Source of the DNA: a virus
Taxonomy: Duplodnaviria; Heunggongvirae; Uroviricota; Caudoviricetes
DNA length: 10,598 bases
IMG/VR virus record: IMGVR_UViG_2778261346_000012
Strand: one strand, 5' to 3'
In this document: one piece after another, positions 1 to 10,598 of the stretch
Position numbering within the stretch: position 1 is the first letter of the stretch
Layout of the letters: the number at the start of each line of letters is the position of its first letter
Made by a program: the position numbers and the translations under genes
The notes under the pieces: generated by a model
Seen by the model: the letters and a program-made list of their open reading frames with translations, nothing else
Database searches by the model: none
What the model was told of the DNA's origin: nothing

Positions 1-1164
1 ATGGCTCTAACCGATATACAAATCAAACGCGCAAAACCACAAGACAAACCATATACATTGAATGATGGGCAAGGCTTGTCATTACTCATCAACCCAGACG
101 GCTCAAAGGGATGGCGCTTCCGTTTTCGTTTTGCAGGCAAAGCGCGGCTAATGTCATTTGGTAGTTATGATCTTGTAAGCCTCGCGGAAGCACGTGAGAA
201 ACGCGATACGGCACGTAAACAGGTTGCAAACGGCATTGACCCAGTAGAAGAACGTAAGGCTCAGAAACTTGCTCAGAAATTATCAACTGAAAACTCTTTT
301 GAGGCCGTTAGCAGAGAATGGTATGCAGCAAAAGCAGACCGCTGGACAGTTGCCTATCGCGAAGAAATCATTAGGACGTTTGAACATGATGTTTTTCCTT
401 TTATTGGTAAACGACCAATATCTGAAATTAAACCGCTAGAGTTGCTTGAAGTACTTAAGCGTATAGAAAAACGTGGGGCATTGGAGAAAACAAGAAAAGT
501 ACGACAAAGATGCGGAGAAGTGTTTCGTTACGCGATCATCACTGGCCGCGCTGAATACAACCCGGCACCTGATTTAGCTATAGCGTTAGCCGCTCCAAAG
601 CAAAAACATCATCCTTTTCTCACTGCAGAAGAATTACCTTACTTCGTCAGAGATCTTGAAGCTTACACGGGCAGTATCATCACTAAAAATGCGACCAAGA
701 TTGTGATGCTTACAGGTGTAAGAACACAGGAAATGCGCTTTGCCACTTGGGAAGAAGTTGATTTAGAAAAAGGGATATGGGAAATACCTGCAGAACGTAT
801 GAAAATGCGTCGTCCTCACCTTGTCCCTTTGTCAACGCAGGTAATCGATCTTTTCAACCAACTAAAACCAATTACAGGACACTACCCATACATCTTCATA
901 GGAAGGAACAACCGCAGAAAACCTATCAGTAAGGAAAGTGTAAATCAAGTAATTGAACTCCTCGGGTATAAAGGAAGAGTTACAGGACACGGTTTTAGAC
1001 ATAGTTTATCGACAATCTTGCATGAGAAAGGCTATAACAGCAATTGGATAGAGCTACAACTAGCACATGTTGATAAAAACAGCATAAGAGGCACTTACAA
1101 CCATGCACAGTACCTCTTACAACGGAAAGAAATGCTTCAGTGGTATGCTGATTTTTTAATGTAA
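1..1164 (+). CDS. int: P4-type tyrosine integrase (site-specific recombinase)
   Basis: 387-aa ORF with ATG start and TAA stop. N-terminus MALTDIQIKRAKPQDKPYTLNDGQGLSLLINPDGSKGWRFRFRF is typical of the P4 integrase arm-binding domain. C-terminal catalytic signatures: GHGFRHSLST (H-x-x-R) and RGTYNHAQY (tyrosine nucleophile). Confidence 0.95.
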   Translation: MALTDIQIKRAKPQDKPYTLNDGQGLSLLINPDGSKGWRFRFRFAGKARLMSFGSYDLVSLAEAREKRDTARKQVANGIDPVEERKAQKLAQKLSTENSFEAVSREWYAAKADRWTVAYREEIIRTFEHDVFPFIGKRPISEIKPLELLEVLKRIEKRGALEKTRKVRQRCGEVFRYAIITGRAEYNPAPDLAIALAAPKQKHHPFLTAEELPYFVRDLEAYTGSIITKNATKIVMLTGVRTQEMRFATWEEVDLEKGIWEIPAERMKMRRPHLVPLSTQVIDLFNQLKPITGHYPYIFIGRNNRRKPISKESVNQVIELLGYKGRVTGHGFRHSLSTILHEKGYNSNWIELQLAHVDKNSIRGTYNHAQYLLQRKEMLQWYADFLM

Positions 1165-1173
1165 GGAGAAAAT

Positions 1174-3045
1174 ATGACTTATTTTACTAACACAGCAGTA
1201 AATATCGAAGGAAACAGAAAGTTAAGAACTCCTCAAATCGAGGCCTATATAAAAATAAGGGAGTTTTTCAGCGACCCTGAGCACCGTGAAGCTCTTGTGA
1301 TTCTACCTACAGGCACAGGTAAAAGTGGGTTAATTTCTATTGCACCATACGGTGTATCTCAAAAAAGAGTTTTGATTATTACACCAGGTCTTGTTACCAA
1401 AGATAGTATTAGAAAGACACAAGAAGTATTAGAAGATAACTTTTGGATAAATTATGACATTGTCTTCAGCAGTAAAGATATTCCTGTAGTTAGTGAATAT
1501 ACACCAGATATATCTTCTGAACACTTAGAACAAAGCCACATTATATTTTCTAATATACAACGTATATCTGGAAATAGAAAAAGCGCACTAATTAATAGAG
1601 TTCCAGAAGATTTCTTTGATTTTATTATCGTTGATGAAGCACATCATGCACCAGCCCAAAGCTGGCGTGATGCTCTTAAATATTTCTCTAAAGCAAAAGT
1701 TTTACATGTCACAGGAACCCCTTATCGTGGTGATGCTCAAGAAATCCCGGGAGAAATAATTCATGAAACACCATTGTCAGAAGTGATGAGAGCAAAATAT
1801 GTAAAATGGTTAAGAAAAGAAACTGTTAATGCTCATGAGTTGTACTTCACAACTCCAGATATACCTAACAAAAAACTAACTAAAGAAGATATTTTAGAAT
1901 TTAAAGATAAAGAATGGATTGAAAAAAGCATTGCCCTATCTCCGGAGTGTTCAAATGATGTGATTGAGCATAGTATTTTAAAACTAAATATACTTAAAGA
2001 AGCATCACCTAAAGTCCCACATAAAATTCTCGCTGTAGGATGTAGCATTACTCATGCCGAAGATCTAGCTAAATGGTATGAAGCAAAAGGTCTACGTGTA
2101 GTTATAATTCATAGTGAAATGGATGATGAAGTAAAAGCAGACGCTTTCCTTAACATTGAAAATCATAACGCCGATGTTGTTATATCGGTAAATATGTTAA
2201 TGGAGGGCTATGACCATAAGTATTTAAGCATTTTGGCAATCTTCAGACCTTACAGGAGCCTTAATGCATTTGCTCAAGTTGTTGGCAGAATTCTACGTGC
2301 GATTCCTGAAAACGAGATTACTGCATTTGAAATAGATAATAATGGAATTGTGATTTTTCATGAAGAAATTGGATTAAATCCAATGTGGGAAAAATTCCAG
2401 AGCGAAGTAGATAGAGCCAAAAGAACCATCAATCGAGAATATACATTTACTGATGATTATTATAGAGAAAGAGAAAACTTTTTGGCTGGTGTCGCAAGTG
2501 ATGGGGCTTACGTCAGTGATCAAGATTCTTATTTAGAAGATGTTGATTTTAACTCTTTATTCGAAGAAAAAAGAGCTGAAATAAACAAAAAAGTTGATGA
2601 ACAATTAGAAATATTCAGGAAGGCAAGTCTTGATGCAGGATTAACGTTACCTGATGACACTCTGAAATTGTTTAAAAGAGACTTAATTGAACAAGAATCT
2701 AGGAAAGCTGCTGGAGAAATAGATCAAGATCTAGTAGAAAAAAGGCCGCATCTTGCTCGTAAAAAAATGAGAGAGATCTTAACCGCTAAGATTAAAGAAG
2801 AGGCTTCTAACCTTCTGATAATAAATGGCCTCGATGAGAAAGGACAAGAACTGCAACCTATTTTTTCACCACATCTTAGGAATCTACAGACAACCGATGC
2901 AAATGATGCTATTATTGTAAAATTCATTTTGGGTAAATTGTATAGACAGTTTGGTCCTGTAAAAGATCGAGACAACCAAACTTTACAGAACTCAATTAAT
3001 TCAATACCTGAGATCTTAGCTGAAGTGTCGAGGATGTTAAAATGA
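1174..3045 (+). CDS. SF2 DEAD/DEAH-box (ResIII-like) helicase-family protein with ~240-aa C-terminal extension of unknown function; candidate defence protein
   Basis: 623-aa ORF. AGGAG RBS at 1164-1168, ATG at 1174, 9 bp after the int stop. Helicase motifs in order: PTGTGKSG (Walker A / motif I), IIVDEAHH (DEAH, motif II), VTGTP (motif III), SVNMLMEGYD (motif V-like), QVVGRILR (motif VI). C-terminal third is charged and low-complexity with no nuclease or other motif I recognise. AT-rich codon usage unlike the satellite core. Confidence 0.9.
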   Translation: MTYFTNTAVNIEGNRKLRTPQIEAYIKIREFFSDPEHREALVILPTGTGKSGLISIAPYGVSQKRVLIITPGLVTKDSIRKTQEVLEDNFWINYDIVFSSKDIPVVSEYTPDISSEHLEQSHIIFSNIQRISGNRKSALINRVPEDFFDFIIVDEAHHAPAQSWRDALKYFSKAKVLHVTGTPYRGDAQEIPGEIIHETPLSEVMRAKYVKWLRKETVNAHELYFTTPDIPNKKLTKEDILEFKDKEWIEKSIALSPECSNDVIEHSILKLNILKEASPKVPHKILAVGCSITHAEDLAKWYEAKGLRVVIIHSEMDDEVKADAFLNIENHNADVVISVNMLMEGYDHKYLSILAIFRPYRSLNAFAQVVGRILRAIPENEITAFEIDNNGIVIFHEEIGLNPMWEKFQSEVDRAKRTINREYTFTDDYYRERENFLAGVASDGAYVSDQDSYLEDVDFNSLFEEKRAEINKKVDEQLEIFRKASLDAGLTLPDDTLKLFKRDLIEQESRKAAGEIDQDLVEKRPHLARKKMREILTAKIKEEASNLLIINGLDEKGQELQPIFSPHLRNLQTTDANDAIIVKFILGKLYRQFGPVKDRDNQTLQNSINSIPEILAEVSRMLK

Positions 3046-3464
3046 TTAATGTAGCTCAAATTTTGAAAAATTTAGCTGCCTTTTGTTCAGTCAAGGGAGT
3101 TCAACCTGATGAACTTGTGACCGCTATATTTGAAAAAGAATATAAAAAAATTGAAACATACAAGGTCAATTGTCTTATTTATTTCATCATGGATTACTCC
3201 GAAAAAATTGATGATGATGAAACATTTATTTCTATGCGTTATATTTATGACGAGAATAAATCACTTATAAAAATAGAACAAAAGCTAAACAATGGACGTT
3301 ATCATACCCAGTGGGACAGAAATGACGCACTGAAGAAATATATAATAAATCAACTTTCTGAACTTCCATATCAGAAAAGAGACGAGGTCTATCAGACAAT
3401 TTTAGAAAATATACCTATTGATGCAAGTTACTCCTTACCTCCAAGGCTAAAGCTTGTTAGCTAA
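3042..3464 (+). CDS. Hypothetical 140-aa protein, translationally coupled partner of the helicase
   Basis: ATG at 3042 overlaps the helicase TGA stop (ATGA, 3042-3045). GAGGA RBS at 3030-3034. Same AT-rich composition. Followed directly by an intrinsic terminator. No motif recognised by eye. Confidence 0.75.
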   Translation: MINVAQILKNLAAFCSVKGVQPDELVTAIFEKEYKKIETYKVNCLIYFIMDYSEKIDDDETFISMRYIYDENKSLIKIEQKLNNGRYHTQWDRNDALKKYIINQLSELPYQKRDEVYQTILENIPIDASYSLPPRLKLVS

Positions 3465-3479
3465 GTTATAATTTCACTG

Positions 3480-3504
3480 AAGGCACCATTTGGTGCCTTT
3501 TTTT
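3480..3504 (+). terminator. Rho-independent terminator of the int-helicase-partner operon
   Basis: Stem AAGGCACC (3480-3487), loop ATTT, stem GGTGCCTT (3492-3499), merging into a 7-T run (3498-3504). Lies 16 bp after the 3464 stop. Confidence 0.75.
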
Positions 3505-3591
3505 CAATGCAAATATATCCAAACTCAATGTAATCTATAAAAACCGTTTTACCTCCACATTATGAATAATATAAATATACACTGGCGCGCA

Positions 3592-3610
3592 GTGCTTTCC
3601 CCGCCTCGCC
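3592..3610 (-). other. cos: cos site: 19-nt P2/P4 cohesive-end sequence
   Basis: Plus strand reads GTGCTTTCCCCGCCTCGCC, the reverse complement of GGCGAGGCGGGGAAAGCAC, which I recall as the P2/P4 cohesive end. The extended reverse complement GGCGAGGCGGGGAAAGCACTGCGCGC matches my memory of the P2 genome left end. Sits between the cargo and psu, as in P4. Confidence 0.8.
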
Positions 3611-3713
3611 CGCCCGCTTTGCAGGGCGGTTTTAATGCAGTTGCACAGTCACGCTCAGGCTGCGCCGGGAATGGCGCGGTCTGCAGAAAATGAGGCAGGA
3701 AAACGCATGCAAA

Positions 3714-3744
3714 GCCATGCACCTTATCGATGCATGGCTTTTTT
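3714..3744. terminator. Terminator-like hairpin between cos and psu; orientation ambiguous, possibly bidirectional
   Basis: Perfect 8-bp stem GCCATGCA (3714-3721) / TGCATGGC (3731-3738), 9-nt loop, then TTTTTT (3739-3744) on the plus strand. On the minus strand the same hairpin is followed only by TTTGCAT, so termination of psu here is weaker. Confidence 0.5.
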
Positions 3745-3774
3745 CAGTAAAAACGGGCGGATTTTCGGGGAATT

Positions 3775-4347
3775 TTACACAGACTGACGTGATGCCAGTT
3801 GCGCACTTTTACGCGAAAAAATCATGTTCTGCGCAGGGGTGAATTTTTCACGGCTGTCATCCACAGAAGCCGCGTCAGGCCTGAATCCGATAGTCGTTAA
3901 AATGTCGCTATCCTGTGCGGAATAATTAATTTTTTCACCCTTCGCAAGCCAGGACAGGAGGGCTTCACGCAGGGCATCTGTGGCACGCTGTATGGCACAG
4001 TTTCGGGCAATGACCGTCAGCTCACTGTAGCCCATCAGCTCCGGTGCCAGTGCCGCCGCCAGTGCTGTGCCGTGCTGCTGCATAAAATCATTCAGCCGGT
4101 CGCGGATGCTGATGTGCTGAACGGCTTCATGCGAACGAATATAACGACCGGCGGCCTGATTCACCTGCCATTTTCTGACTTCGATAATATTGCGTAATTC
4201 GTCCAGGCGGCTGACGTTTCTGCCTTCTCCTGACAGAAGCCGCAGATATTCCTGTTCGGCCGCTGCCAGCTCATTTTTGCGTTGCAGCCATGCTGCTTTG
4301 TTATTCTGACAGGTGTCAAAGGCCTGCTGTAAGGCTGTGCTTTCCAT
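3775..4347 (-). CDS. psu: Psu, polarity suppression protein (Rho antagonist / capsid decoration)
   Basis: 190-aa ORF, ATG start. Sequence MESTALQQAFDTCQNNKAAWLQRKNELAAAEQEYLRLL... matches my memory of P4 Psu in both sequence and length. Last gene of the sid-delta-psu operon, next to cos. Confidence 0.93.
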   Translation of the reverse strand: MESTALQQAFDTCQNNKAAWLQRKNELAAAEQEYLRLLSGEGRNVSRLDELRNIIEVRKWQVNQAAGRYIRSHEAVQHISIRDRLNDFMQQHGTALAAALAPELMGYSELTVIARNCAIQRATDALREALLSWLAKGEKINYSAQDSDILTTIGFRPDAASVDDSREKFTPAQNMIFSRKSAQLASRQSV

Positions 4348-4420
4348 CGTTATCTCTTTCTCATCATGCTGAAGAATAAAAATACGGTGTGCGGCGACGG
4401 CCGGGGTTAACCGGCAGCCT

Positions 4421-4921
4421 TCATTCCAGACGCAGCGAATATGATTGTGTTTTTAACCGTACTGGCGGCAGTTCCTGTTTTTCATGCAGGCGTTCTGCCA
4501 GTTCGTCCGGCGTGACCGGGCGGACAATGAAGCGGGTGATGGTCTGAAGCGTTTTAAACACCAGACCACAGCCCGGATCCGTGCACACATAAAAACGCTC
4601 GGTGACTTCCTGAGACAGACGCCGCGATGTTCTTGACAGTGCAAGGCCTTTACATCTCCGACAACAATATCCGGTAACAAGCATTCTTTTCGGGCGTTTC
4701 ATACTGCCGGAGGCTGACGTCAGTGAATCGCGGTATCTCTGTTTGCCTGAAATGTATTCCATTCCTGAATCTTTACAGTCAGAGAAAAAGCTTTCACTCG
4801 CTTCAAATGTCGCAGAGCAATAAATATTCCGGCACTGTGCAATCATTATCTTGGTGCCATCGTCCATGAAATGTGCGCGACGGGTGTGAGCAACATGTCC
4901 ACACGACGGGCAGTAAATCAT
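4421..4921 (-). CDS. delta: Delta, late-gene transcriptional activator (tandem Ogr-like zinc-finger domains)
   Basis: Chosen start is the internal ATG at 4921-4919 (MIYCPSCGH...), giving 166 aa, the P4 Delta length. It overlaps the sid TGA stop (ATGA) and has a GAGGA RBS about 10 nt upstream. The ORF-track start at 4978 is a GTG that would overlap sid by 60 nt. Two Ogr-like Cys clusters are present: CPSCGH...C..C and CCRRC...C..C. Confidence 0.88.
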   Translation of the reverse strand: MIYCPSCGHVAHTRRAHFMDDGTKIMIAQCRNIYCSATFEASESFFSDCKDSGMEYISGKQRYRDSLTSASGSMKRPKRMLVTGYCCRRCKGLALSRTSRRLSQEVTERFYVCTDPGCGLVFKTLQTITRFIVRPVTPDELAERLHEKQELPPVRLKTQSYSLRLE

Positions 4922-5652
4922 GACAGCAGTCCTCTGGCCTTCAGCTCTGCTCCCTGCTGGTCTATTTTGTCCTGCCACACCTTGCGCTGTGCCGGTGTGC
5001 CTGCCACCTCATAATCCATGTGCGGAAGTGTTGCCGCTGACAGTCCGGTCAGCCGGAGAACCGGCTCACCGGTGAGGCTGATTTGCATCTGTTTAATTTT
5101 CTGTTCCAGCGATGATTTCACCTGCTGCATGACAGCCTTTTCCGGTGCGACATAGCCCTGATGGCCGGTGGTGTTGGCGAGCGGATTTTCCTGTACCAGG
5201 ATGCTCAGATGCATTGCCCGGACAAGCGCCTCACAGGTTTCATTCAGGGCGTGTTCCAGCTCATGCTCTGCATACAGACTCAGAAGATGATGATGTGCCT
5301 TCCGGTAGGCGGTGGCCGTGCTGTCACACGCCCCTTTCAGGCGTTCACGTTCAAAATTCAGCACCACGGCCAGATTGTCATATTCCTGTACCAGCTCCCG
5401 GCGTGCCACGCGCTCAATGTGGCGCTGTTTCAGCTCGTCGCTCAGGACACCACCGGCTGCACGAAAGGCCGTGCGCCAGTCGTCAGCATCGTTTCCGTCG
5501 GCCTGCGTCAGCGCATTTTTTTCCTGCTCTGCCCGTTCAATGGCCGTGACGGTCTCATCCATCAGGCGGGCGTTCTCAAGATGAGCGACTCTGGCCTTTT
5601 CCAGTTGTGCCAGTGCGGGTTGCAGATATTCAGGGATGGTGTTGTCAGACAT
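4918..5652 (-). CDS. sid: Sid, capsid size determination (external scaffold) protein
   Basis: Start taken at ATG 5652-5650 (MSDNTIPEYLQ...), giving 244 aa, the P4 Sid length. GAGGAG RBS 8 nt upstream. The ORF-track start at 5670 is an upstream in-frame GTG. Confidence 0.9.
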   Translation of the reverse strand: MSDNTIPEYLQPALAQLEKARVAHLENARLMDETVTAIERAEQEKNALTQADGNDADDWRTAFRAAGGVLSDELKQRHIERVARRELVQEYDNLAVVLNFERERLKGACDSTATAYRKAHHHLLSLYAEHELEHALNETCEALVRAMHLSILVQENPLANTTGHQGYVAPEKAVMQQVKSSLEQKIKQMQISLTGEPVLRLTGLSAATLPHMDYEVAGTPAQRKVWQDKIDQQGAELKARGLLS

Positions 5653-5686
5653 TTTCCGGCTCCTCGTCACTTCAGGTTAAGAAAAT

Positions 5687-5742
5687 TGTGACGTACACCG
5701 GACAACAACACGACGCATTGCAGATGTGCCAGCCCTGACACA
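5687..5742 (-). promoter_or_regulatory. Psid late promoter region with two TGT-N12-ACA activator (Delta/Ogr) binding dyads
   Basis: TGTGCCAGCCCTGACACA at 5725-5742 and TGTGACGTACACCGGACA at 5687-5704, both TGT-N12-ACA, centred 38 bp apart. If the distal dyad is at about -55 the TSS falls near 5678, some 26 nt upstream of the sid ATG. TGT-N12-ACA at -55 is the established P2/P4 late-promoter activator site. Confidence 0.6.
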
Positions 5743-5821
5743 GGAGACTCATCCTCAGACCGGCAAGCCAGGAAAAGGTCGCAGGAAAAACCGGCTTACT
5801 GTTTGTTTTTTTATATTTTAC

Positions 5822-5925
5822 TGTTCACCTCTGTTCACCTTAATAAAAAAGATAAGTAATACAGTAAGTTAAAGGGTGAACAATCGCAGTAATGACTGTT
5901 CACCGTCTGTTCACCACTGTTCACC
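5822..5925. repeat. ori: Origin of replication (ori): six TGTTCACC type-I iterons (alpha-binding octamers)
   Basis: TGTTCACC at 5822-5829, 5832-5839, 5897-5904, 5908-5915, 5918-5925, plus an inverted copy GGTGAACA at 5875-5882. Direct copies are spaced 10-11 bp apart. Flanked by very AT-rich DNA (5805-5820 and 5935-6030). From memory, P4 alpha binds TGTTCACC octamers in ori and crr. Confidence 0.75.
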
Positions 5926-6083
5926 CGTTGATGGGCTTTTTGTGCTGTTTATTACTTTTTATTTTTATTAATTCACTGAAATAAATAAGAAAAAACGATT
6001 TGTATTTCACTATAATTTTTTCCAGCTCCTTCCAGAGCGTTTTAAAGCTATCTGGCGCTGATGTACAAAAAACGCACAGCCAT

Positions 6084-6101
6084 TGTAAGGCTGCCGGAAC
6101 A
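6084..6101 (+). promoter_or_regulatory. PLL late promoter activator site (TGT-N12-ACA dyad)
   Basis: TGTAAGGCTGCCGGAACA at 6084-6101. If centred at -55 the TSS is near 6147, about 57 nt upstream of vis and about 395 bp upstream of the predicted PLE start. That fits the literature statement, as I recall it, that PLL lies about 400 nt upstream of PLE. Confidence 0.55.
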
Positions 6102-6203
6102 AATCCCCCCTGTTGCGTCTGCCAAAAATATTCACAAAATAAAGCGCTACCCGAAGCCGGACGGACTTATCCGGTGCTGTATGGACATTAACGAGGTAGC
6201 CCG

Positions 6204-6470
6204 ATGCAAGCTGTTTTTTCTTCCCCGTCTCCCGCCCCTGTGACGCCACTGATGCCGCTGCCGGACATCACGCAGGAGCGTTTTTTACGTCTGCCGGAAG
6301 TGATGCACCTGTGCGGCCTGTCACGCTCGACCATCTATGAACTCATCCGTAAGGGGGAATTTCCGCCGCAGGTGAGTCTTGGCGGTAAAAATGTGGCCTG
6401 GCTGCACTCTGAAGTCACCGCATGGATGGCCGGCCGCATTGCCGGACGCAAACGGGGGTATGACGCATGA
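6204..6470 (+). CDS. vis: Vis, AlpA-family helix-turn-helix regulator / excision factor (P4 orf88)
   Basis: 88-aa ORF, GAGG RBS 7 nt upstream of ATG 6204. AlpA-like core [30 protein letters not shown]. Stop overlaps the eta start (ATGA). Confidence 0.85.
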
Positions 6471-7066
6471 TGATGCCCGCTCTGCAAAAACTCCCTTTTT
6501 CTGGCTTGCCTTTTTCCGGCATTTGCGGATATAGTCTTTCCGTTGCCGCAAAATCGGCAGCCGGGCGTGAGAACCCGTGTAGCTCGAAGGCGACATATGA
6601 CGCGCCATGCGTCTTTTTTTGTGTCGCAATCAATGCCACAGAGCGCCAGATTATGGTGTGGTGTGTGGTCAGTCGTGCAGATGGCATTCCGTGCATCCTG
6701 CCTGCGTCCGCTCATTATGCCGCAGAGTCAATGGTAGCTCAGGCGGGGCAGCCTCCGGGCTGGCCGGTATTCTTCGAGGCCGGTATTCTCACCCCCGTCT
6801 GGGCTATCGCCATCGAGCGTGAGAACTCCGGCGATAGCAGTTATTTGCTACTCGAAGGAGGCTGCCTTATGGCTACAACCCTTACCCCCTCACACCCTGA
6901 ATTTGTCTTTGTGTTTGCGGCTGTCCGTCGCGCAGACCGTCATCCCCGTATCTGTATGCTTCGCACCGTCGCCGGTGATGAACGCAGTGCCCGCCGTTCC
7001 CTTGTCCGTGACTATGTGCTCTCCCTTGCTGCCCGTCTGCCGGTGGTGGAGGTGTCCCGTGCGTAA
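6467..7066 (+). CDS. eta: Eta (P4 orf199); reading frame spans PLE, the cI RNA region and the nested kil gene
   Basis: 199-codon ORF beginning with three consecutive ATGs (6467-6475). This fits my recollection of P4 eta as 197-199 aa with three candidate start codons. Whether the whole frame is translated is uncertain because an RNA gene and promoter lie inside it. Confidence 0.6.
6506..6535 (+). promoter_or_regulatory. PLE, candidate constitutive sigma70 early promoter
   Basis: -35 TTGCCT (6506-6511), 18-bp spacer, -10 TATAGT (6530-6535). Predicted TSS near 6542, just upstream of seqA. Confidence 0.5.
6565..6590 (+). promoter_or_regulatory. seqA-like immunity target in the PLE leader
   Basis: GCGTGAGAAC...CTCGAAGG. 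Both blocks are complementary to the seqB core inside the predicted CI RNA (CTTCGAG...TTCTCAC at 6772-6792) and recur at 6817-6858. Confidence 0.5.
6737..6804 (+). ncRNA. cI: CI immunity RNA (P4 cI / C4-type antisense RNA), boundaries approximate
   Basis: A 12-bp closing stem (GCTCAGGCGGGG 6737-6748 pairs with CCCCGTCTGGGC 6793-6804, including 2 G-U pairs) encloses about 44 nt that contain the seqB-like segment complementary to the upstream and downstream targets. About 68 nt, close to the ~69-nt size I recall for P4 CI RNA. Lies between PLE and kil as in P4. Confidence 0.5.
6817..6858 (+). promoter_or_regulatory. seqC-like immunity target overlapping the kil translation initiation region
   Basis: GCGTGAGAAC (6817-6826) and CTCGAAGG (6851-6858) repeat the seqA blocks. 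The second block overlaps the kil RBS AAGGAGG (6855-6861). Confidence 0.5.
6869..7066 (+). CDS. kil: Kil, 65-aa protein nested in-frame in the 3' end of eta
   Basis: In-frame ATG at 6869 with an AAGGAGG RBS 7 nt upstream gives exactly 65 codons to the shared TAA stop. Matches my recollection of P4 kil as a 65-aa product and the first translated gene downstream of PLE. Confidence 0.6.
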
Positions 7067-7346
7067 TAAAAAAGCCCCTCAGACCGTCTCAGCGCGTCAT
7101 GACGCCCGTGAACACCTCAGCATTGAGGCTTACCATAAGCTCAACCGCGCCAGCGCCGTATCCCAGTTTGTTGGGGGTGATTTGATTCACCGTGAACTCT
7201 CCGGCCTGCATCAGCTCTACATTCCGCATATTTTCAGCTACCTGAATGAAGATATTGATTTTGTGCTGAATGAACTGAAAGCCAAAGGCCTGTGCCGCGA
7301 TTTTCTCGCCCAGCAGAAAGACCGGGGAGACAGGACGCATGTTTGA
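7059..7346 (+). CDS. epsilon: Epsilon, helper-prophage derepressor (anti-repressor of the P2 C repressor)
   Basis: GTG start at 7059 with a GGAGG RBS (7048-7052) 6 nt upstream, overlapping the eta/kil stop. 95 codons to TGA 7344-7346, matching the ~95 aa I recall for P4 epsilon. The ORF-track frame extends upstream to 6819 but overlaps kil and lacks a convincing start there. Stop overlaps the orf151 ATG. Confidence 0.55.
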
Positions 7347-7794
7347 TTTTCCCCAGCCCGGTGAGATTTACCGTTCTGCCGGTTTTCCCGATGTGGCCGT
7401 GGTCGGCATTCTGGAAGACGGTATTCCGTGGGAAATGCCGTACCGCTGCCCGGAAATTGTCTGGAACCCGTACCGCCGTAAATTCAGTATCCTTGTGCGT
7501 ATCCTCGCTGACGGACGCACCACAGACATCCCGCTGGGGCGTTTTCTGCGGGAATTTACCTGTGACCGTCCTGACCTGTTTAAACGCAGCCCCGTAAACC
7601 GGCATGCGGTACTGAAAGAAATGGCCGGAGACCCGGAATTACAGAAATGGCGGGAAAAATATCTGGATATTTACCCGCAGGACACTGTTCCGGTCAGCCG
7701 GGCAGCACCGGTGGCGCGGGAATGGCGGGAAATTCCCCGCACGGAGCCTGACCCGGAAACCACCCCGGATAACAGTTACCGCAATTATCTGTAA
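7339..7794 (+). CDS. Conserved P4 left-operon protein (orf151 equivalent), function unknown
   Basis: 151-aa ORF, ATG start overlapping the epsilon stop. Size and position match P4 orf151 as I recall it. Confidence 0.75.
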   Translation: MFDFPQPGEIYRSAGFPDVAVVGILEDGIPWEMPYRCPEIVWNPYRRKFSILVRILADGRTTDIPLGRFLREFTCDRPDLFKRSPVNRHAVLKEMAGDPELQKWREKYLDIYPQDTVPVSRAAPVAREWREIPRTEPDPETTPDNSYRNYL

Positions 7795-7929
7795 TTAAAA
7801 AACGACCCCCGAAAAATTAAATGTGCGTATTCGCGCAGGGATACGCACGTCTTCAGGAGACGCAGATATGCCTTATCAGTTAATGCAACCGGCACGGAAT
7901 GCAGTCATCTGTCACAGGGAGAAAAGCAA

Positions 7930-8250
7930 ATGAAAACACCCTTACCGCCCGTCTTACGCGCTGCCCTTTACCGTCGCGCTGTCGCCTGTGCCTGGCTGAC
8001 CGTGTGCGAACGTCAGCACCGCTACCCGCATCTCACCCTTGAGTCACTGGAGGCGGCCATCGCCGCTGAGCTGGAAGGCTTTTATCTGCGCCAGCACGGT
8101 GAGGAAAAAGGGCGTCAGATAGCCTGTGCCCTGCTGGAAGATTTAATGGAATCCGGCCCCCTGAAGGCCGCGCCGTCGCTGTCCTTTCTCGGGCTGGTTG
8201 TGATGGATGAACTCTGTGCCCGTCACATAAAAGCGCCGGTACTGCACTGA
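7930..8250 (+). CDS. Conserved P4 left-operon protein (orf106 equivalent), function unknown
   Basis: 106-aa ORF, AGGGAG RBS 8 nt upstream of ATG 7930. Immediately upstream of alpha. Confidence 0.7.
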
Positions 8251-8264
8251 AGGAGAACAACACC

Positions 8265-10598
8265 ATGAAAATGAACGTAACCGCCACCGTCAGCCATGCG
8301 CTCGGCCACTGGCCGCGTATTCTCCCGGCGCTGGGGATTCAGGTGCTGAAAAACCGTCATCAGCCCTGTCCGGTCTGTGGCGGGAGTGACCGCTTCCGTT
8401 TTGATGACAGGGAGGGGCGCGGCACCTGGTACTGCAATCAGTGTGGTGCCGGTGACGGCCTGAAACTGGTTGAAAAGGTGTTTGGTGTTTCCCCGTCCGA
8501 CGCGGCCGCAAAGGTGGCTGCCGTGACCGGCAGCCTGCCCACGGCTGACCCGGCAGTGACGGCCGCCGCCGGCGCTGAAACAGACGCTGCCCGGAAGAAC
8601 GCCGCCGCACTGGCACAAACCCTGATGGCAAAAACCCGTCCCGGAACCGGTAACGCCTACCTGACCCGCAAGGGCTTTCCCGGCCGGGAATGCCGGATGC
8701 TGACCGGCACACACAGAGCCGGTGGCGTGAGCTGGCGCGCCGGTGACCTTGTGGTGCCACTGTATGACGACAGCGGCGAACTGGTTAACCTTCAGTTAAT
8801 CAGTGCTGACGGCCGTAAGCGCACCCTGAAAGGCGGACAGGTCAGGGGCACCTGTCACACCCTTGAAGGACAGAATCAGGCCGGAAAACGTCTGTGGATA
8901 GCGGAGGGATACGCGACCGCACTTACCGTACATCACCTGACCGGTGAAACGGTGATGGTGGCGCTTTCTTCCGTGAACCTCCTTTCTCTGGCCAGCCTTG
9001 CCCGGCAGAAGCATCCGGCCTGTCAGATTGTCCTTGCCGCAGACCGTGACCTCAGCGGTGACGGCCAGAAAAAAGCCGCCGCAGCCGCAGATGCGTGTGA
9101 GGGCGTTGTTGCCCTGCCGCCGGTCTTCGGTGACTGGAATGATGCCTTCACGCAGTACGGCGGGGAAGCCACCCGTAAGGCCATTTATGATGCCATCCGG
9201 CCACCGGCTGAAAGCCCGTTCGACACCATGAGCGAAGCGGAGTTTTCCGCCATGAGTACCAGCGAAAAGGCCATGCGTATCTATGAGCATTACGGCGAGG
9301 CGCTCGCGGTCGATGCCAACGGCCAGCTTCTGTCCCGCTATGAAAATGGTGTCTGGAAGGTGCTGCCGCCACAGGACTTTGCCCGGGATGTGGCCGGGCT
9401 GTTTCAGCGTCTGCGCGCGCCGTTCTCCTCCGGGAAAGTGGCCTCCGTGGTGGACACCCTGAAGCTGATTATTCCGCAGCAGGAAGCCCCCTCCCGCCGC
9501 CTGATTGGCTTTCGTAACGGCGTGCTCGACACGCAGAACGGCACGTTCCACCCGCACAGTCCGTCACACTGGATGCGCACCCTGTGCGATGTGGATTTCA
9601 CCCCGCCGGTGGACGGTGAAACGCTGGAGACCCACGCCCCCGCGTTCTGGCGCTGGCTTGACCGTGCCGCCGGTGGCCGTGCGGAAAAACGCGACGTGAT
9701 TCTGGCCGCACTGTTTATGGTGCTGGCAAACCGCTACGACTGGCAGCTCTTTCTGGAGGTGACCGGTCCCGGCGGCAGCGGCAAAAGTATCATGGCCGAA
9801 ATAGCCACCCTGCTGGCCGGGGAGGATAACGCCACGTCGGCCACCATTGAGACGCTGGAATCCCCGCGTGAACGTGCCGCGTTAACTGGCTTCTCACTGA
9901 TACGCCTGCCGGACCAGGAAAAATGGAGCGGCGACGGAGCCGGACTCAAGGCTATCACCGGCGGCGATGCGGTGTCCGTTGACCCGAAATACCGGGATGC
10001 GTACTCCACGCATATCCCGGCGGTGATTCTGGCCGTGAACAATAACCCGATGCGCTTCACCGACCGCAGCGGCGGCGTGTCACGCCGGCGGGTGATTATT
10101 CACTTCCCGGAACAGATAGCCCCGCAGGAGCGCGACCCGCAGCTTAAGGACAAAATCACCCGCGAGCTGGCGGTCATCGTGCGTCACCTGATGCAGAAGT
10201 TCAGCGACCCGATGCTCGCCCGGTCACTGCTTCAGTCCCAGCAGAACTCAGACGAGGCACTGAACATCAAACGGGATGCCGACCCGACGTTTGATTTTAT
10301 CGGCTATCTGGAAACCCTGCCGCAGACCAGCGGCATGTATATGGGGAACGCCAGTATCATCCCGCGTAATTACCGTAAATACCTCTATCACGCCTATCTG
10401 GCCTACATGGAGGCAAACGGCTACCGGAATGTACTCAGTCTGAAAATGTTCGGGCTGGGGCTGCCGGTGATGCTGAAGGAATACGGACTGAATTACGAGA
10501 AGCGCCATACCAAACAGGGGATACAGACCAACCTGACACTGAAAGAGGAAAGCTACGGCGACTGGCTGCCAAAATGTGACGCCCCTGCAACAACCTGA
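8265..10598 (+). CDS. alpha: Alpha, multifunctional primase-helicase replication protein
   Basis: 777-aa ORF, the P4 alpha length. AGGAG RBS 9 nt upstream. N-terminal zinc ribbon CPVCGGSDRFRFDD...YCNQCG. Primase/TOPRIM-like WIAEGYATALTV and LAADRDLSGDGQ. Walker A VTGPGGSGKS in the helicase domain. C-terminal region is expected to bind the iterons. Confidence 0.95.
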   Translation: MKMNVTATVSHALGHWPRILPALGIQVLKNRHQPCPVCGGSDRFRFDDREGRGTWYCNQCGAGDGLKLVEKVFGVSPSDAAAKVAAVTGSLPTADPAVTAAAGAETDAARKNAAALAQTLMAKTRPGTGNAYLTRKGFPGRECRMLTGTHRAGGVSWRAGDLVVPLYDDSGELVNLQLISADGRKRTLKGGQVRGTCHTLEGQNQAGKRLWIAEGYATALTVHHLTGETVMVALSSVNLLSLASLARQKHPACQIVLAADRDLSGDGQKKAAAAADACEGVVALPPVFGDWNDAFTQYGGEATRKAIYDAIRPPAESPFDTMSEAEFSAMSTSEKAMRIYEHYGEALAVDANGQLLSRYENGVWKVLPPQDFARDVAGLFQRLRAPFSSGKVASVVDTLKLIIPQQEAPSRRLIGFRNGVLDTQNGTFHPHSPSHWMRTLCDVDFTPPVDGETLETHAPAFWRWLDRAAGGRAEKRDVILAALFMVLANRYDWQLFLEVTGPGGSGKSIMAEIATLLAGEDNATSATIETLESPRERAALTGFSLIRLPDQEKWSGDGAGLKAITGGDAVSVDPKYRDAYSTHIPAVILAVNNNPMRFTDRSGGVSRRRVIIHFPEQIAPQERDPQLKDKITRELAVIVRHLMQKFSDPMLARSLLQSQQNSDEALNIKRDADPTFDFIGYLETLPQTSGMYMGNASIIPRNYRKYLYHAYLAYMEANGYRNVLSLKMFGLGLPVMLKEYGLNYEKRHTKQGIQTNLTLKEESYGDWLPKCDAPATT

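What the first reader, a model, noticed from the sequence alone, without database searches (positions are those of the whole stretch)
1..3600. Sharp compositional break: AT-rich int-cargo module versus GC-rich satellite core, with the boundary at cos
Seen in sequence: the helicase and partner genes are strongly AT-biased (roughly one third G+C by eye, not computed), with AT-rich codons throughout. From about 3600 onward (cos, psu, delta, sid, alpha) the DNA is GC-rich. The int gene is intermediate. This suggests the cargo was acquired horizontally from a lower-GC donor and swapped into the hotspot by recombination between the conserved int and cos/psu flanks.
Basis: seen in the sequence. Interest (0 to 1): 0.5.

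Follow-up and report, generated by a model that had tools for sequence, protein, structure and literature searches.

The report
P4 satellite's AT-rich defence arm
The sharp GC step is real and marks cos, where the two ends of a P4-like phage satellite's packaged genome join: an AT-rich integrase-plus-antiphage-helicase arm meets the GC-rich core, a known defence hotspot rather than a new kind of feature.

Summary
Observation confirmed. GC is 0.42 (int), 0.345/0.31 (helicase/partner) and 0.56 (core). The change-point is at 3579, 13 bp from an exact P2/P4 cos 19-mer (3592-3610); GC jumps 0.28 to 0.68 across 3585.

The window is a P4-like satellite of E. coli O145. Its core is 98% identical to phage P4, and that match ends at the last base of P4's linear genome. 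This is the published psu-int defence hotspot (Rousset 2022), and this exact cargo is in their Table S1A. A close homologue (helicase 93%, partner 82% identical) gave 10^3-10^4-fold protection against T4 (de Sousa 2026, pFD408).

- The cos boundary holds.
- int is not a conserved flank. Alleles are 72-95% identical, each full-length allele occurs essentially only with its own cargo, and int's codon usage matches the cargo.
- A specific low-GC donor is not supported. All cargos here are 32-36% GC, and this helicase family stays at 34-38% GC in hosts of roughly 40-66% GC.

New detail: seven carriers share an att-to-cos block with 0-3 differences on at least three different cores. This suggests, but does not prove, arm reassortment through att and cos.

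The parts
1..1164 (+). int: tyrosine integrase of the tRNA-Sec (selC) type. GC is 0.424, falling from 5' to 3'. Belongs to the AT-rich arm.
   Evidence: Pfam Arm-DNA-bind_3, Phage_int_M and Phage_integrase. RefSeq WP_001218984.1. CAI 0.548, the same as the cargo. The allele is found at >=99% in 39 records only.
1174..3045 (+). Defence helicase: 623-aa SF2 ATPase/translocase with ResIII and Helicase_C domains, a disordered linker (415-457) and an all-alpha C-terminal domain. No nuclease domain was detected. GC 0.345.
   Evidence: Pfam. PADLOC and NCBIfam give only partial motor-domain hits far below cut-offs. AlphaFold model pLDDT 76. Foldseek top hits are RadD, XPB, RecQ and UvrB. 93.4% aa identity to the pFD408 helicase.
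3042..3464 (+). Partner: 140-aa protein of unknown fold, overlapping the helicase stop by 4 nt. Conserved next to the helicase in every context examined. GC 0.310.
3479..3508 (+). Intrinsic terminator-like hairpin plus T-run, ending the int-helicase-partner unit.
   Evidence: Terminator scan. Conserved in the pFD408 construct.
3465..3584 (.). Cargo-linked AT-rich spacer. It is homologous only between alleles of the same cargo and ends at the homology edge.
   Evidence: Unalignable between different cargos. 69% identical to the pFD408 allele.
3585..3610 (-). cos: the conserved GCGCGCA followed by the 19-nt cohesive-end core (3592-3610). It is the physical end of the linear packaged genome and the compositional and homology boundary.
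   Evidence: Exact 19-mer. All elements are identical from 3585 onward. The match to P4 ends at P4 nt 11624, and P4 nt 1-26 read GGCGAGGCGGGGAAAGCAC+CGCGCGC.
3775..4347 (-). psu: first gene of the GC-rich core arm.
   Evidence: Pfam Psu, E 3e-88. P4 match.
4421..10598 (.). Rest of the P4 core arm: delta 4421-4921(-), sid 4918-5652(-), ori about 5426-6149, ORF88/alpA 6204-6470, cI region with C4 RNA 6727-6814, epsilon 7059-7346, orf151, orf106, alpha 8265-10598. GC is about 0.56.
   Evidence: 98.0% identity to P4 X51522 nt 4636-11624. P4 annotation. Rfam. Pfam.

Best explanation
The window is a complete P4-like phage satellite, cut from int to alpha. The GC step is the place where the two ends of its linear, packaged chromosome are joined at cos.

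The left arm runs, in virion order, cos - cargo - int - attP. It is AT-rich, has non-host codon usage, and carries a two-gene anti-phage defence system: an SF2 helicase plus a 140-aa partner. The system follows int after a 9-bp gap and ends at its own terminator. The right arm (attP/crr - alpha ... sid - delta - psu - cos) is the GC-rich, host-like core needed for replication and for hijacking the helper phage P2.

Shown here: this is the known psu-int defence hotspot. The cargo family is the commonest one at that hotspot, and a 93%/82% homologue protects against phages. The AT-rich arm is inherited as a near-clonal block bounded by the att core and cos, and it sits on several different cores. 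The cores themselves are fine-scale mosaics.

Inferred: arms are reassorted when two P4-like genomes in one cell are joined at att by Int (attP x attP, or tandem integration) and then packaged cos-to-cos by the P2 terminase. That yields [int+cargo] of one element on the core of another without any crossover next to cos. Ordinary homologous recombination then further scrambles the low-divergence core. Older crossovers inside int also occurred.

The low GC is a long-maintained property of the hotspot gene pool, not the footprint of an identifiable low-GC donor.
For: Identity: 99.9% match to E. coli O145 RM9154, gene order int-helicase-partner-psu-delta-sid...alpha. The core is 98.0% identical to P4, and the match ends at P4 nt 11624. 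P4 itself has an AT-rich left arm (cargo 0.357, int 0.462) and a core at 0.561.

Hotspot: five other elements with near-identical cores carry different cargos, all alignable from 3585. Published by Rousset 2022 (PMC9122126), with this exact pair WP_000220867+WP_000611230 in Table S1A and the family listed as system #1 with 819 loci.

Defence: the pFD408 construct aligns to window 985-3770 at 86.5%. Its EOP (plating efficiency relative to the control strain) on T4 was 1.5e-4 and 1.2e-3, on Bas35 2e-4 and 2e-3, and about 1e-2 on several other phages.

Block inheritance: seven carriers show 0-3 differences in 1-3584 against up to about 600 in the core, with the first core difference at 3623 or 3661. 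The attL-int spacer shows 0-1 differences, while host DNA left of tRNA-Sec differs by 2.2-2.4%. The P' arm is polymorphic to within 12-49 bp of the att core. One carrier sits at a different chromosomal site, so recombination through host flanks cannot explain that case. The pattern replicates with the helicase+DUF2290 cargo.

int-cargo linkage at population level.

Composition is generic.
Against: The att/cos reassortment step is inferred from boundary positions only. Resolution is limited by marker density: no polymorphic site exists between 3585 and 3622.

The core is demonstrably a recombination mosaic. Repeated homologous exchange in the 1-3% divergent core and P' arm, together with suppressed exchange in the 7-8% divergent P side, could give the same picture.

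Across integrase families (P4 leuX type vs selC type) the variable module ends at crr, about 130 bp beyond the att core. attP x attP exchange cannot explain that.

Different int alleles share blocks that are 99-100% identical over the first 200 nt, so crossovers inside int do happen.

de Sousa 2026 report little linkage between defence genes and any core gene (Spearman <=0.2).

Defence activity was measured on a homologue, not on this allele.
Confidence: 0.72

Rival explanations
1. Edge-of-homology model. Cargo (with or without int) is exchanged purely by RecA-type homologous recombination in the conserved sequences flanking the variable module: cos-psu on one side and crr-alpha, the P' arm or the 5' end of int on the other. 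The sharp edges are only where homology starts, and cos and att play no active part.
For: Core SNPs are reticulate and patchy; for example the window and L002 are identical over 4421-6271 and 6609-9613, with differences clustered elsewhere. Between int families the module is bounded by crr, not by the att core. int alleles share 99-100% identical 5' blocks that then drop to 75%. The P side is 7-8% diverged, which alone would suppress exchange there.
Against: Carriers of the identical block differ at the first available markers on both sides (3623/3647 and P' -49/-12). That requires crossovers within roughly 40-60 bp of both homology edges in several independent backgrounds. There are no Chi sites to focus exchange. 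One carrier is at another chromosomal locus, so the host flank gives no homology on the left.
Confidence: 0.3
2. Recent foreign acquisition. The helicase pair arrived recently from a low-GC organism, and its AT-richness is an un-ameliorated donor signature.
For: GC3 of 0.23 is far below E. coli, and codon usage is non-host. The closest non-P4 homologues include Providencia and Proteus, which are lower-GC genera.
Against: All unrelated cargos at this site, P4's own gop-beta-cII, and int share the low GC. The family is 34-39% GC in hosts with flanking DNA from 39% to 66% GC, always below the host. Alleles diverged by 12-31% that have long resided in P4 hotspots keep GC3 at 0.23-0.26. No near-identical copy exists outside E. 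coli P4-like elements.
Confidence: 0.1
3. cos-end-initiated recombination. The double-strand end made by terminase at cos invades another P4-like genome and primes break-copy synthesis into the neighbouring cargo, concentrating junctions at cos, as with cut-cos hotspots in lambda Red crosses (recalled from established lambda genetics, not tested here).
For: The junction lies within 38-62 bp of the cos end in independent backgrounds. The hotspot lies next to cos in both P4 and P2.
Against: It does not explain the equally tight boundary at the att core. There are no Chi sites. There is no direct evidence.
Confidence: 0.15

Closest known systems
P4-like satellite psu-int anti-phage hotspot (Rousset et al. 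2022, PMC9122126; de Sousa et al. 2026, PMC13586616)
   Same: Same position between int and psu, directly next to cos. Unrelated cargos sit on near-identical cores. This exact protein pair is listed in Rousset's Table S1A, and Rousset's Fig. 1A legend already describes conserved and variable sequence at the cos-proximal region.
   Different: Neither paper mentions GC content. Neither reports that int co-segregates with the cargo or that the block is bounded by the att core; the 2026 paper leaves the exchange mechanism open.
'REase::RM Type 1' putative system, plasmid pFD408 (de Sousa et al. 2026)
   Same: Same synteny: int 3' end, helicase, partner, terminator, cos. The helicase is 93.4% and the partner 82.1% identical. 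It was experimentally protective.
   Different: It is a different allele, from a P4 lineage whose cos-psu spacer is only about 70% identical. This window's allele has not been tested.
Canonical phage P4 (X51522 / NC_001609) non-essential region gop-beta-cII-int
   Same: Same arm layout and the same compositional contrast (cargo 0.357, int 0.462, core 0.561). Same cos core followed by a GCGCGC tail.
   Different: Different cargo, and a different integrase family and att site (leuX type, 440 aa). Homology on the att side ends at crr.
Int-promoted recombination and cos-to-cos packaging in phage lambda crosses and tandem lysogens (classical lambda genetics, recalled from memory)
   Same: It would exchange the genome arms on either side of att, with the other boundary set by cos. 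That matches the att-to-cos block seen here.
   Different: Not demonstrated for P4-like satellites. Here it rests only on where sequence divergence starts.
Type III (Res/Mod) and Type I (HsdR/M/S) restriction enzymes, the labels given to this helicase in the two papers
   Same: Shares the SF2 ResIII-type motor domain.
   Different: No methyltransferase or specificity gene, and no detectable nuclease domain. Scores are far below the family cut-offs.

Membership tests
P4-like satellite | Core gene set int, psu, delta, sid, alpA, epsilon, alpha, plus a cos site | tested here: met
   Pfam hits; 98.0% identity to P4 nt 4636-11624; exact cos 19-mer; C4 immunity RNA.
P4 psu-int defence hotspot | Variable gene content between int and psu/cos on otherwise conserved elements | tested here: met
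   Five elements with cores 98-99.6% identical carry four other cargos; homology starts at 3585.
P4 psu-int defence hotspot | The cargo confers anti-phage defence | not testable with these tools
   The literature covers a 93%/82% homologue only: pFD408 had EOP of 1e-3 to 1e-4 on T4 and Bas35.
pFD408-type helicase + 140-aa partner system | An approximately 620-aa ResIII/Helicase_C protein followed by an overlapping gene of about 140 aa from the same partner family | tested here: met
   The pair is conserved in Yersinia, Providencia and Chromobacterium.
Type III restriction-modification (Res) | Adjacent Mod methyltransferase gene | tested here: not met
   Only two ORFs lie between int and cos. 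The partner has no methyltransferase family or fold.
Type III restriction-modification (Res) | C-terminal PD-(D/E)XK endonuclease domain | tested here: not met
   Residues 459-622 are predicted to be all-alpha. There are no nuclease Pfam or PDB sequence hits. The PADLOC REase_III hit has E 6.6e-6 and covers the motor only.
Type I restriction-modification (HsdR) | N-terminal nuclease domain plus HsdM and HsdS partners, and a score above the family cut-off | tested here: not met
   Helicase motif I is at aa 46-51, leaving no N-terminal domain. The NCBIfam EcoAI R-subunit model scores 58 bits against a cut-off of 550 and matches only aa 106-188. There are no hsdM or hsdS genes.
Crouga (de Sousa 2026) | Partner protein with DUF6156 (PF19653) | tested here: not met
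   The partner gives no DUF6156 hit at E<=0.01. The Crouga construct (pFD421) is a separate entry from pFD408.
Helicase + DUF2290 (Rousset 2022) | DUF2290 partner and a UvrD/AAA_19-type helicase | tested here: not met
   No DUF2290 hit. That system is present instead in L003 and L004 at the same site.

The most novel reading that the evidence does not exclude
The unit that P4-like satellites exchange is not the cargo alone. It is a whole genome arm, attP - int - defence cargo - cos. Arms reassort between co-resident satellites through two site-specific reactions, Int at att and terminase at cos, acting on attP x attP cointegrates or tandem lysogens that are then packaged cos-to-cos. Homologous or illegitimate recombination next to the cargo is not needed. 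This would supply a mechanism for the very rapid defence swapping that the 2026 study documents but leaves unexplained. It would also explain why the hotspot lies at cos, and why the arm-binding N-terminus of int is its most conserved part: it must still recognise the P' arm, which travels with a foreign core.
Probability: 0.4. Interest if true: 0.6.

Novelty: already known. Interest (0 to 1): 0.3.

Why it matters
The finding itself re-describes a published defence hotspot, so it changes little on its own. Three by-products are worth having.

1. The commonest cargo of the E. coli P4 hotspot carries the labels 'Type III REase' and 'Type I REase', yet it fails the defining tests for both. It is a two-gene helicase system with no recognisable nuclease, its mechanism is unknown, and a close homologue gives strong anti-T4 activity.

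2. Integrase and cargo behave as one linkage block, bounded by the att core and cos. This gives a concrete, testable mechanism for how satellites swap defences.

3. Low GC is a stable trait of the whole accessory arm in every host examined. GC-based 'foreign donor' arguments should therefore not be applied to such hotspots.

Tried and rejected
1. Polarised substitution test for amelioration. It gave an AT>GC excess (20:8 and 30:3). With saturated outgroups that are 76% AT, the parsimony rule alone predicts about 11.6:1, so the test has no power and I discarded it.

2. Promoter scan for a cargo promoter inside int. It found 9 sites against 11 expected by chance, and none upstream of the helicase start. 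Uninformative.

3. Chi-site search. No sites, so a RecBCD/Chi explanation for a cos-proximal hotspot is not supported.

4. Equating the cargo with 'Crouga'. Rejected: Crouga is a different construct, and its partner has DUF6156.

6. Look-up of a Sorangium homologue for a high-GC context. Not on record; Chromobacterium was used instead.

7. Explaining the O145 and EC93 difference by a chromosomal inversion between co-resident satellites. Rejected, because both flanks of the O145 copy (mscS and argO) are adjacent genes in E. coli K-12 (gene order recalled from memory, not checked here) and the junctions look like Int-type joints.
Full report

Yes. GC is 0.424 for int (1-1164), 0.345 for the helicase (1174-3045; GC3 0.232), 0.310 for the partner (3042-3464) and 0.561 from 3600 to the end (alpha 0.611, GC3 0.713). 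A two-segment likelihood scan puts the change-point at 3579 with LLR 185.5. The largest value in 500 base shuffles was 10.3, and in 500 shuffles of 300-nt blocks it was 94.4. GC is 0.28 in the 100 nt left of 3585 and 0.68 in the 100 nt to its right; cargo vs core gives z = -19.1.

Codon usage was scored against 12 flanking host genes. int, helicase and partner score 0.548, 0.549 and 0.554. Core genes score 0.645-0.719 and host genes 0.596-0.767. So int is intermediate only in GC, and by codon usage it belongs with the cargo. Its GC falls steadily from 0.46 to 0.38 towards the cargo. The left edge is therefore a gradient and the right edge a step.

**2. What is there?**

Pfam identifies an integrase, an SF2 helicase (ResIII + Helicase_C), Psu, Ogr/Delta, AlpA, Ash and a P4 alpha-type primase. 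The window is 99.9% identical to a chromosomal element of E. coli O145 RM9154.

The P2/P4 cohesive-end 19-mer is present exactly at 3592-3610. Phage P4 (X51522) matches window 3611-10598 at 98.0%, and the match stops at P4 nt 11624, the last base of the linear virion DNA. P4 nt 1-26 read cos 19-mer + CGCGCGC, the same tail as here. The GC step is therefore the cos junction of the two ends of the packaged chromosome.

P4 itself shows the same contrast: gop-beta-cII 0.34-0.37, int 0.46, core 0.56. Rfam finds the C4 immunity RNA and its targets at 6529-6814.

**3. Is it a swappable cargo?**

Yes. The backbone matches 2,364 of 5,426 complete E. coli genomes, but the cargo matches only 40. Elements with cores 98.4-99.6% identical carry different cargos at the same place:
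- GapS4a plus two small genes (L002, a second satellite in the same O145:H28 genomes)
- helicase + DUF2290 (L003, L004)
- a dCTP deaminase (L005)
- a diverged allele of the present pair (L006; helicase 69%, partner 42% identical)

All six sequences are unalignable to the left of window 3585 and identical from 3585 on, 7 bp before the cos core.

This is the psu-int hotspot of Rousset et al. 2022. Their Table S1A lists this exact pair (WP_000220867 + WP_000611230).

**4. What does the cargo do?**

de Sousa et al. 2026 synthesised a segment ('Syst.1_Rease_RMTypeI', plasmid pFD408) that aligns with window 985-3770 at 86.5%. Its helicase is 93.4% and its partner 82.1% identical to those here. Their infection table gives efficiencies of plating of 1.5e-4 and 1.2e-3 on T4, 2e-4 and 2e-3 on Bas35, and about 1e-2 on Bas11, Bas13, Bas63, AL505_P2 and lambda. 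A defence role is thus experimentally supported for a close homologue, though not for this allele.

How it works is unknown:
- The helicase model (pLDDT 76) has a RadD/XPB/RecQ-like motor, a disordered linker (415-457) and an all-alpha C-terminal domain, with no nuclease fold.
- The pair stays adjacent in Providencia, Yersinia and Chromobacterium.
- There is no methyltransferase or specificity gene, and restriction-enzyme models match only the motor, far below cut-off (58 vs 550 bits).

The 'Type III' and 'Type I REase' labels therefore fail their membership tests. My inference is an ATP-driven DNA translocase whose fast-evolving partner acts as sensor or specificity factor. This is not shown.

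**5. Was it acquired from a low-GC donor?**

Not supported as stated.
- Every cargo at this site is 32-36% GC, every selC-type int is 41-44%, and every core is 54-56%.
- The helicase pair is 34%/27% GC in Providencia (flanks 39-42%), 37%/32% in Yersinia (flanks 47-54%), and 38%/39% in Chromobacterium (flanking host genes 66%).
- Alleles 12-31% diverged, all resident in P4 hotspots, keep GC3 at 0.23-0.26.

Low GC therefore looks like a maintained trait of this mobile gene pool. A parsimony test for amelioration was biased by saturated AT-rich outgroups and was discarded.

**6. How is it exchanged?**

Seven carriers from unrelated lineages have 0-3 differences in the 3,584 bp of int+cargo but up to about 600 in the 7 kb core. 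They include at least five psu alleles and a different delta architecture. The first core difference is at 3623 or 3661 in five of them.

On the other side, the attL-int spacer shows 0-1 differences. Host DNA beyond tRNA-Sec differs by 2.2-2.4%. The P' arm next to attR is polymorphic to within 12-49 bp of the att core. The clonal block is therefore att core to cos, which is exactly one arm of the virion genome.

One carrier (O145) sits at a secondary site between mscS and argO, so homology in the host flank cannot explain the shared block. The pattern repeats for the helicase+DUF2290 cargo.

At population level, each full-length int allele at >=99% is found essentially only with its own cargo: 39 and 39, 128 and 129, 31 and 31. 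The dCTP-deaminase type is less clear: 36 records match at >=99% but only 12 at full length, and the 24 partial matches were not resolved. Over longer times int is mosaic, with 99-100% identical 5' blocks shared between alleles, so crossovers inside int do occur.

I favour arm reassortment: Int-mediated joining at att, followed by cos-to-cos packaging. This needs no crossover beside cos.

The main rival is plain homologous recombination in the low-divergence core and P' arm. In its favour:
- The core is a reticulate mosaic.
- The P side is 7-8% diverged, which would suppress exchange there.
- Between integrase families the module ends at crr rather than at the att core.

No Chi sites are present. 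The two models are not resolved here.

**7. Verdict**

The feature is a known one, and the element and its cargo are already catalogued. It is wrong about int as a conserved flank and is unsupported about a low-GC donor.

Interest is low for the finding as written. It is moderate for the att-to-cos linkage block and the mechanism it suggests, and for the mislabelled, mechanistically unknown helicase defence system.

Noticed in passing
L001:3820-4000 and L001:15060-15090 (flanks of the window's element in E. coli O145 RM9154): The O145 copy is integrated between mscS and argO with no tRNA nearby. Six other carriers with the identical integrase sit at tRNA-Sec. The junctions read ...GTGTTCCGCCATC|TTCCGCCAAACC and ...GACTCCTGTGATC|GGTGCTCGG, which looks like Int-mediated secondary-site integration. 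In O145:H28, selC is occupied by another P4-like satellite followed by the LEE island.
   Followed up: partly
window 6529-6814: Rfam finds the C4 antisense (P4 CI immunity) RNA at 6727-6814, its a1/b1 targets at 6529-6581, and isrK at 6542-6619. All lie inside the ORF 6467-7066 that RefSeq annotates as 'host cell division inhibitor Icd-like protein'.
   Followed up: no
window 5700-6150: A second AT-rich dip (GC about 0.38) lies inside the GC-rich core. By coordinate transfer from P4 (nt 9086-9809) it is the P4 replication origin and late-promoter region, not foreign DNA.
   Followed up: partly
window 3042-3464 vs 1174-3045: The 140-aa partner diverges much faster than the helicase: 42% vs 69% aa identity to the L006 allele, and 82% vs 93% to the pFD408 allele. 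This is the pattern expected of a sensor or specificity component under phage pressure.
   Followed up: partly
L001-L006 and L011, cargo segments between the int stop and cos: Unrelated cargos in five different cargo types are all 2.19-2.76 kb long. This suggests a packaging-size constraint on what the hotspot can hold.
   Followed up: no
L011:14591-15079 and L018 (P4) 4098-4635: Between integrase families (P4 leuX type vs selC type), homology on the alpha side ends at the start of crr (P4 nt 4291), about 130 bp before the att core. The whole attP with both arms thus belongs to the variable module at that depth. Within the selC family the P' arm is conserved across all int alleles.
   Followed up: partly
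window 1-200: The 5' part of int, which encodes the arm-DNA-binding domain, is its most conserved part (88-100% between alleles). Three alleles with different cargos share 99-100% identity there before dropping to about 75%.
   Followed up: partly
NZ_CP028746.1 (strain A29), equivalent to about window 1111: One carrier has an IS3-family element inserted near the 3' end of int. The match to the window is split into two pieces, and the int match stops at 1111.
   Followed up: no
L017:5001-11863 (Chromobacterium violaceum): The helicase+partner pair lies close to Tn7-like tniQ/tniB genes in a high-GC host. This shows the system also travels outside P4-like satellites.
   Followed up: no
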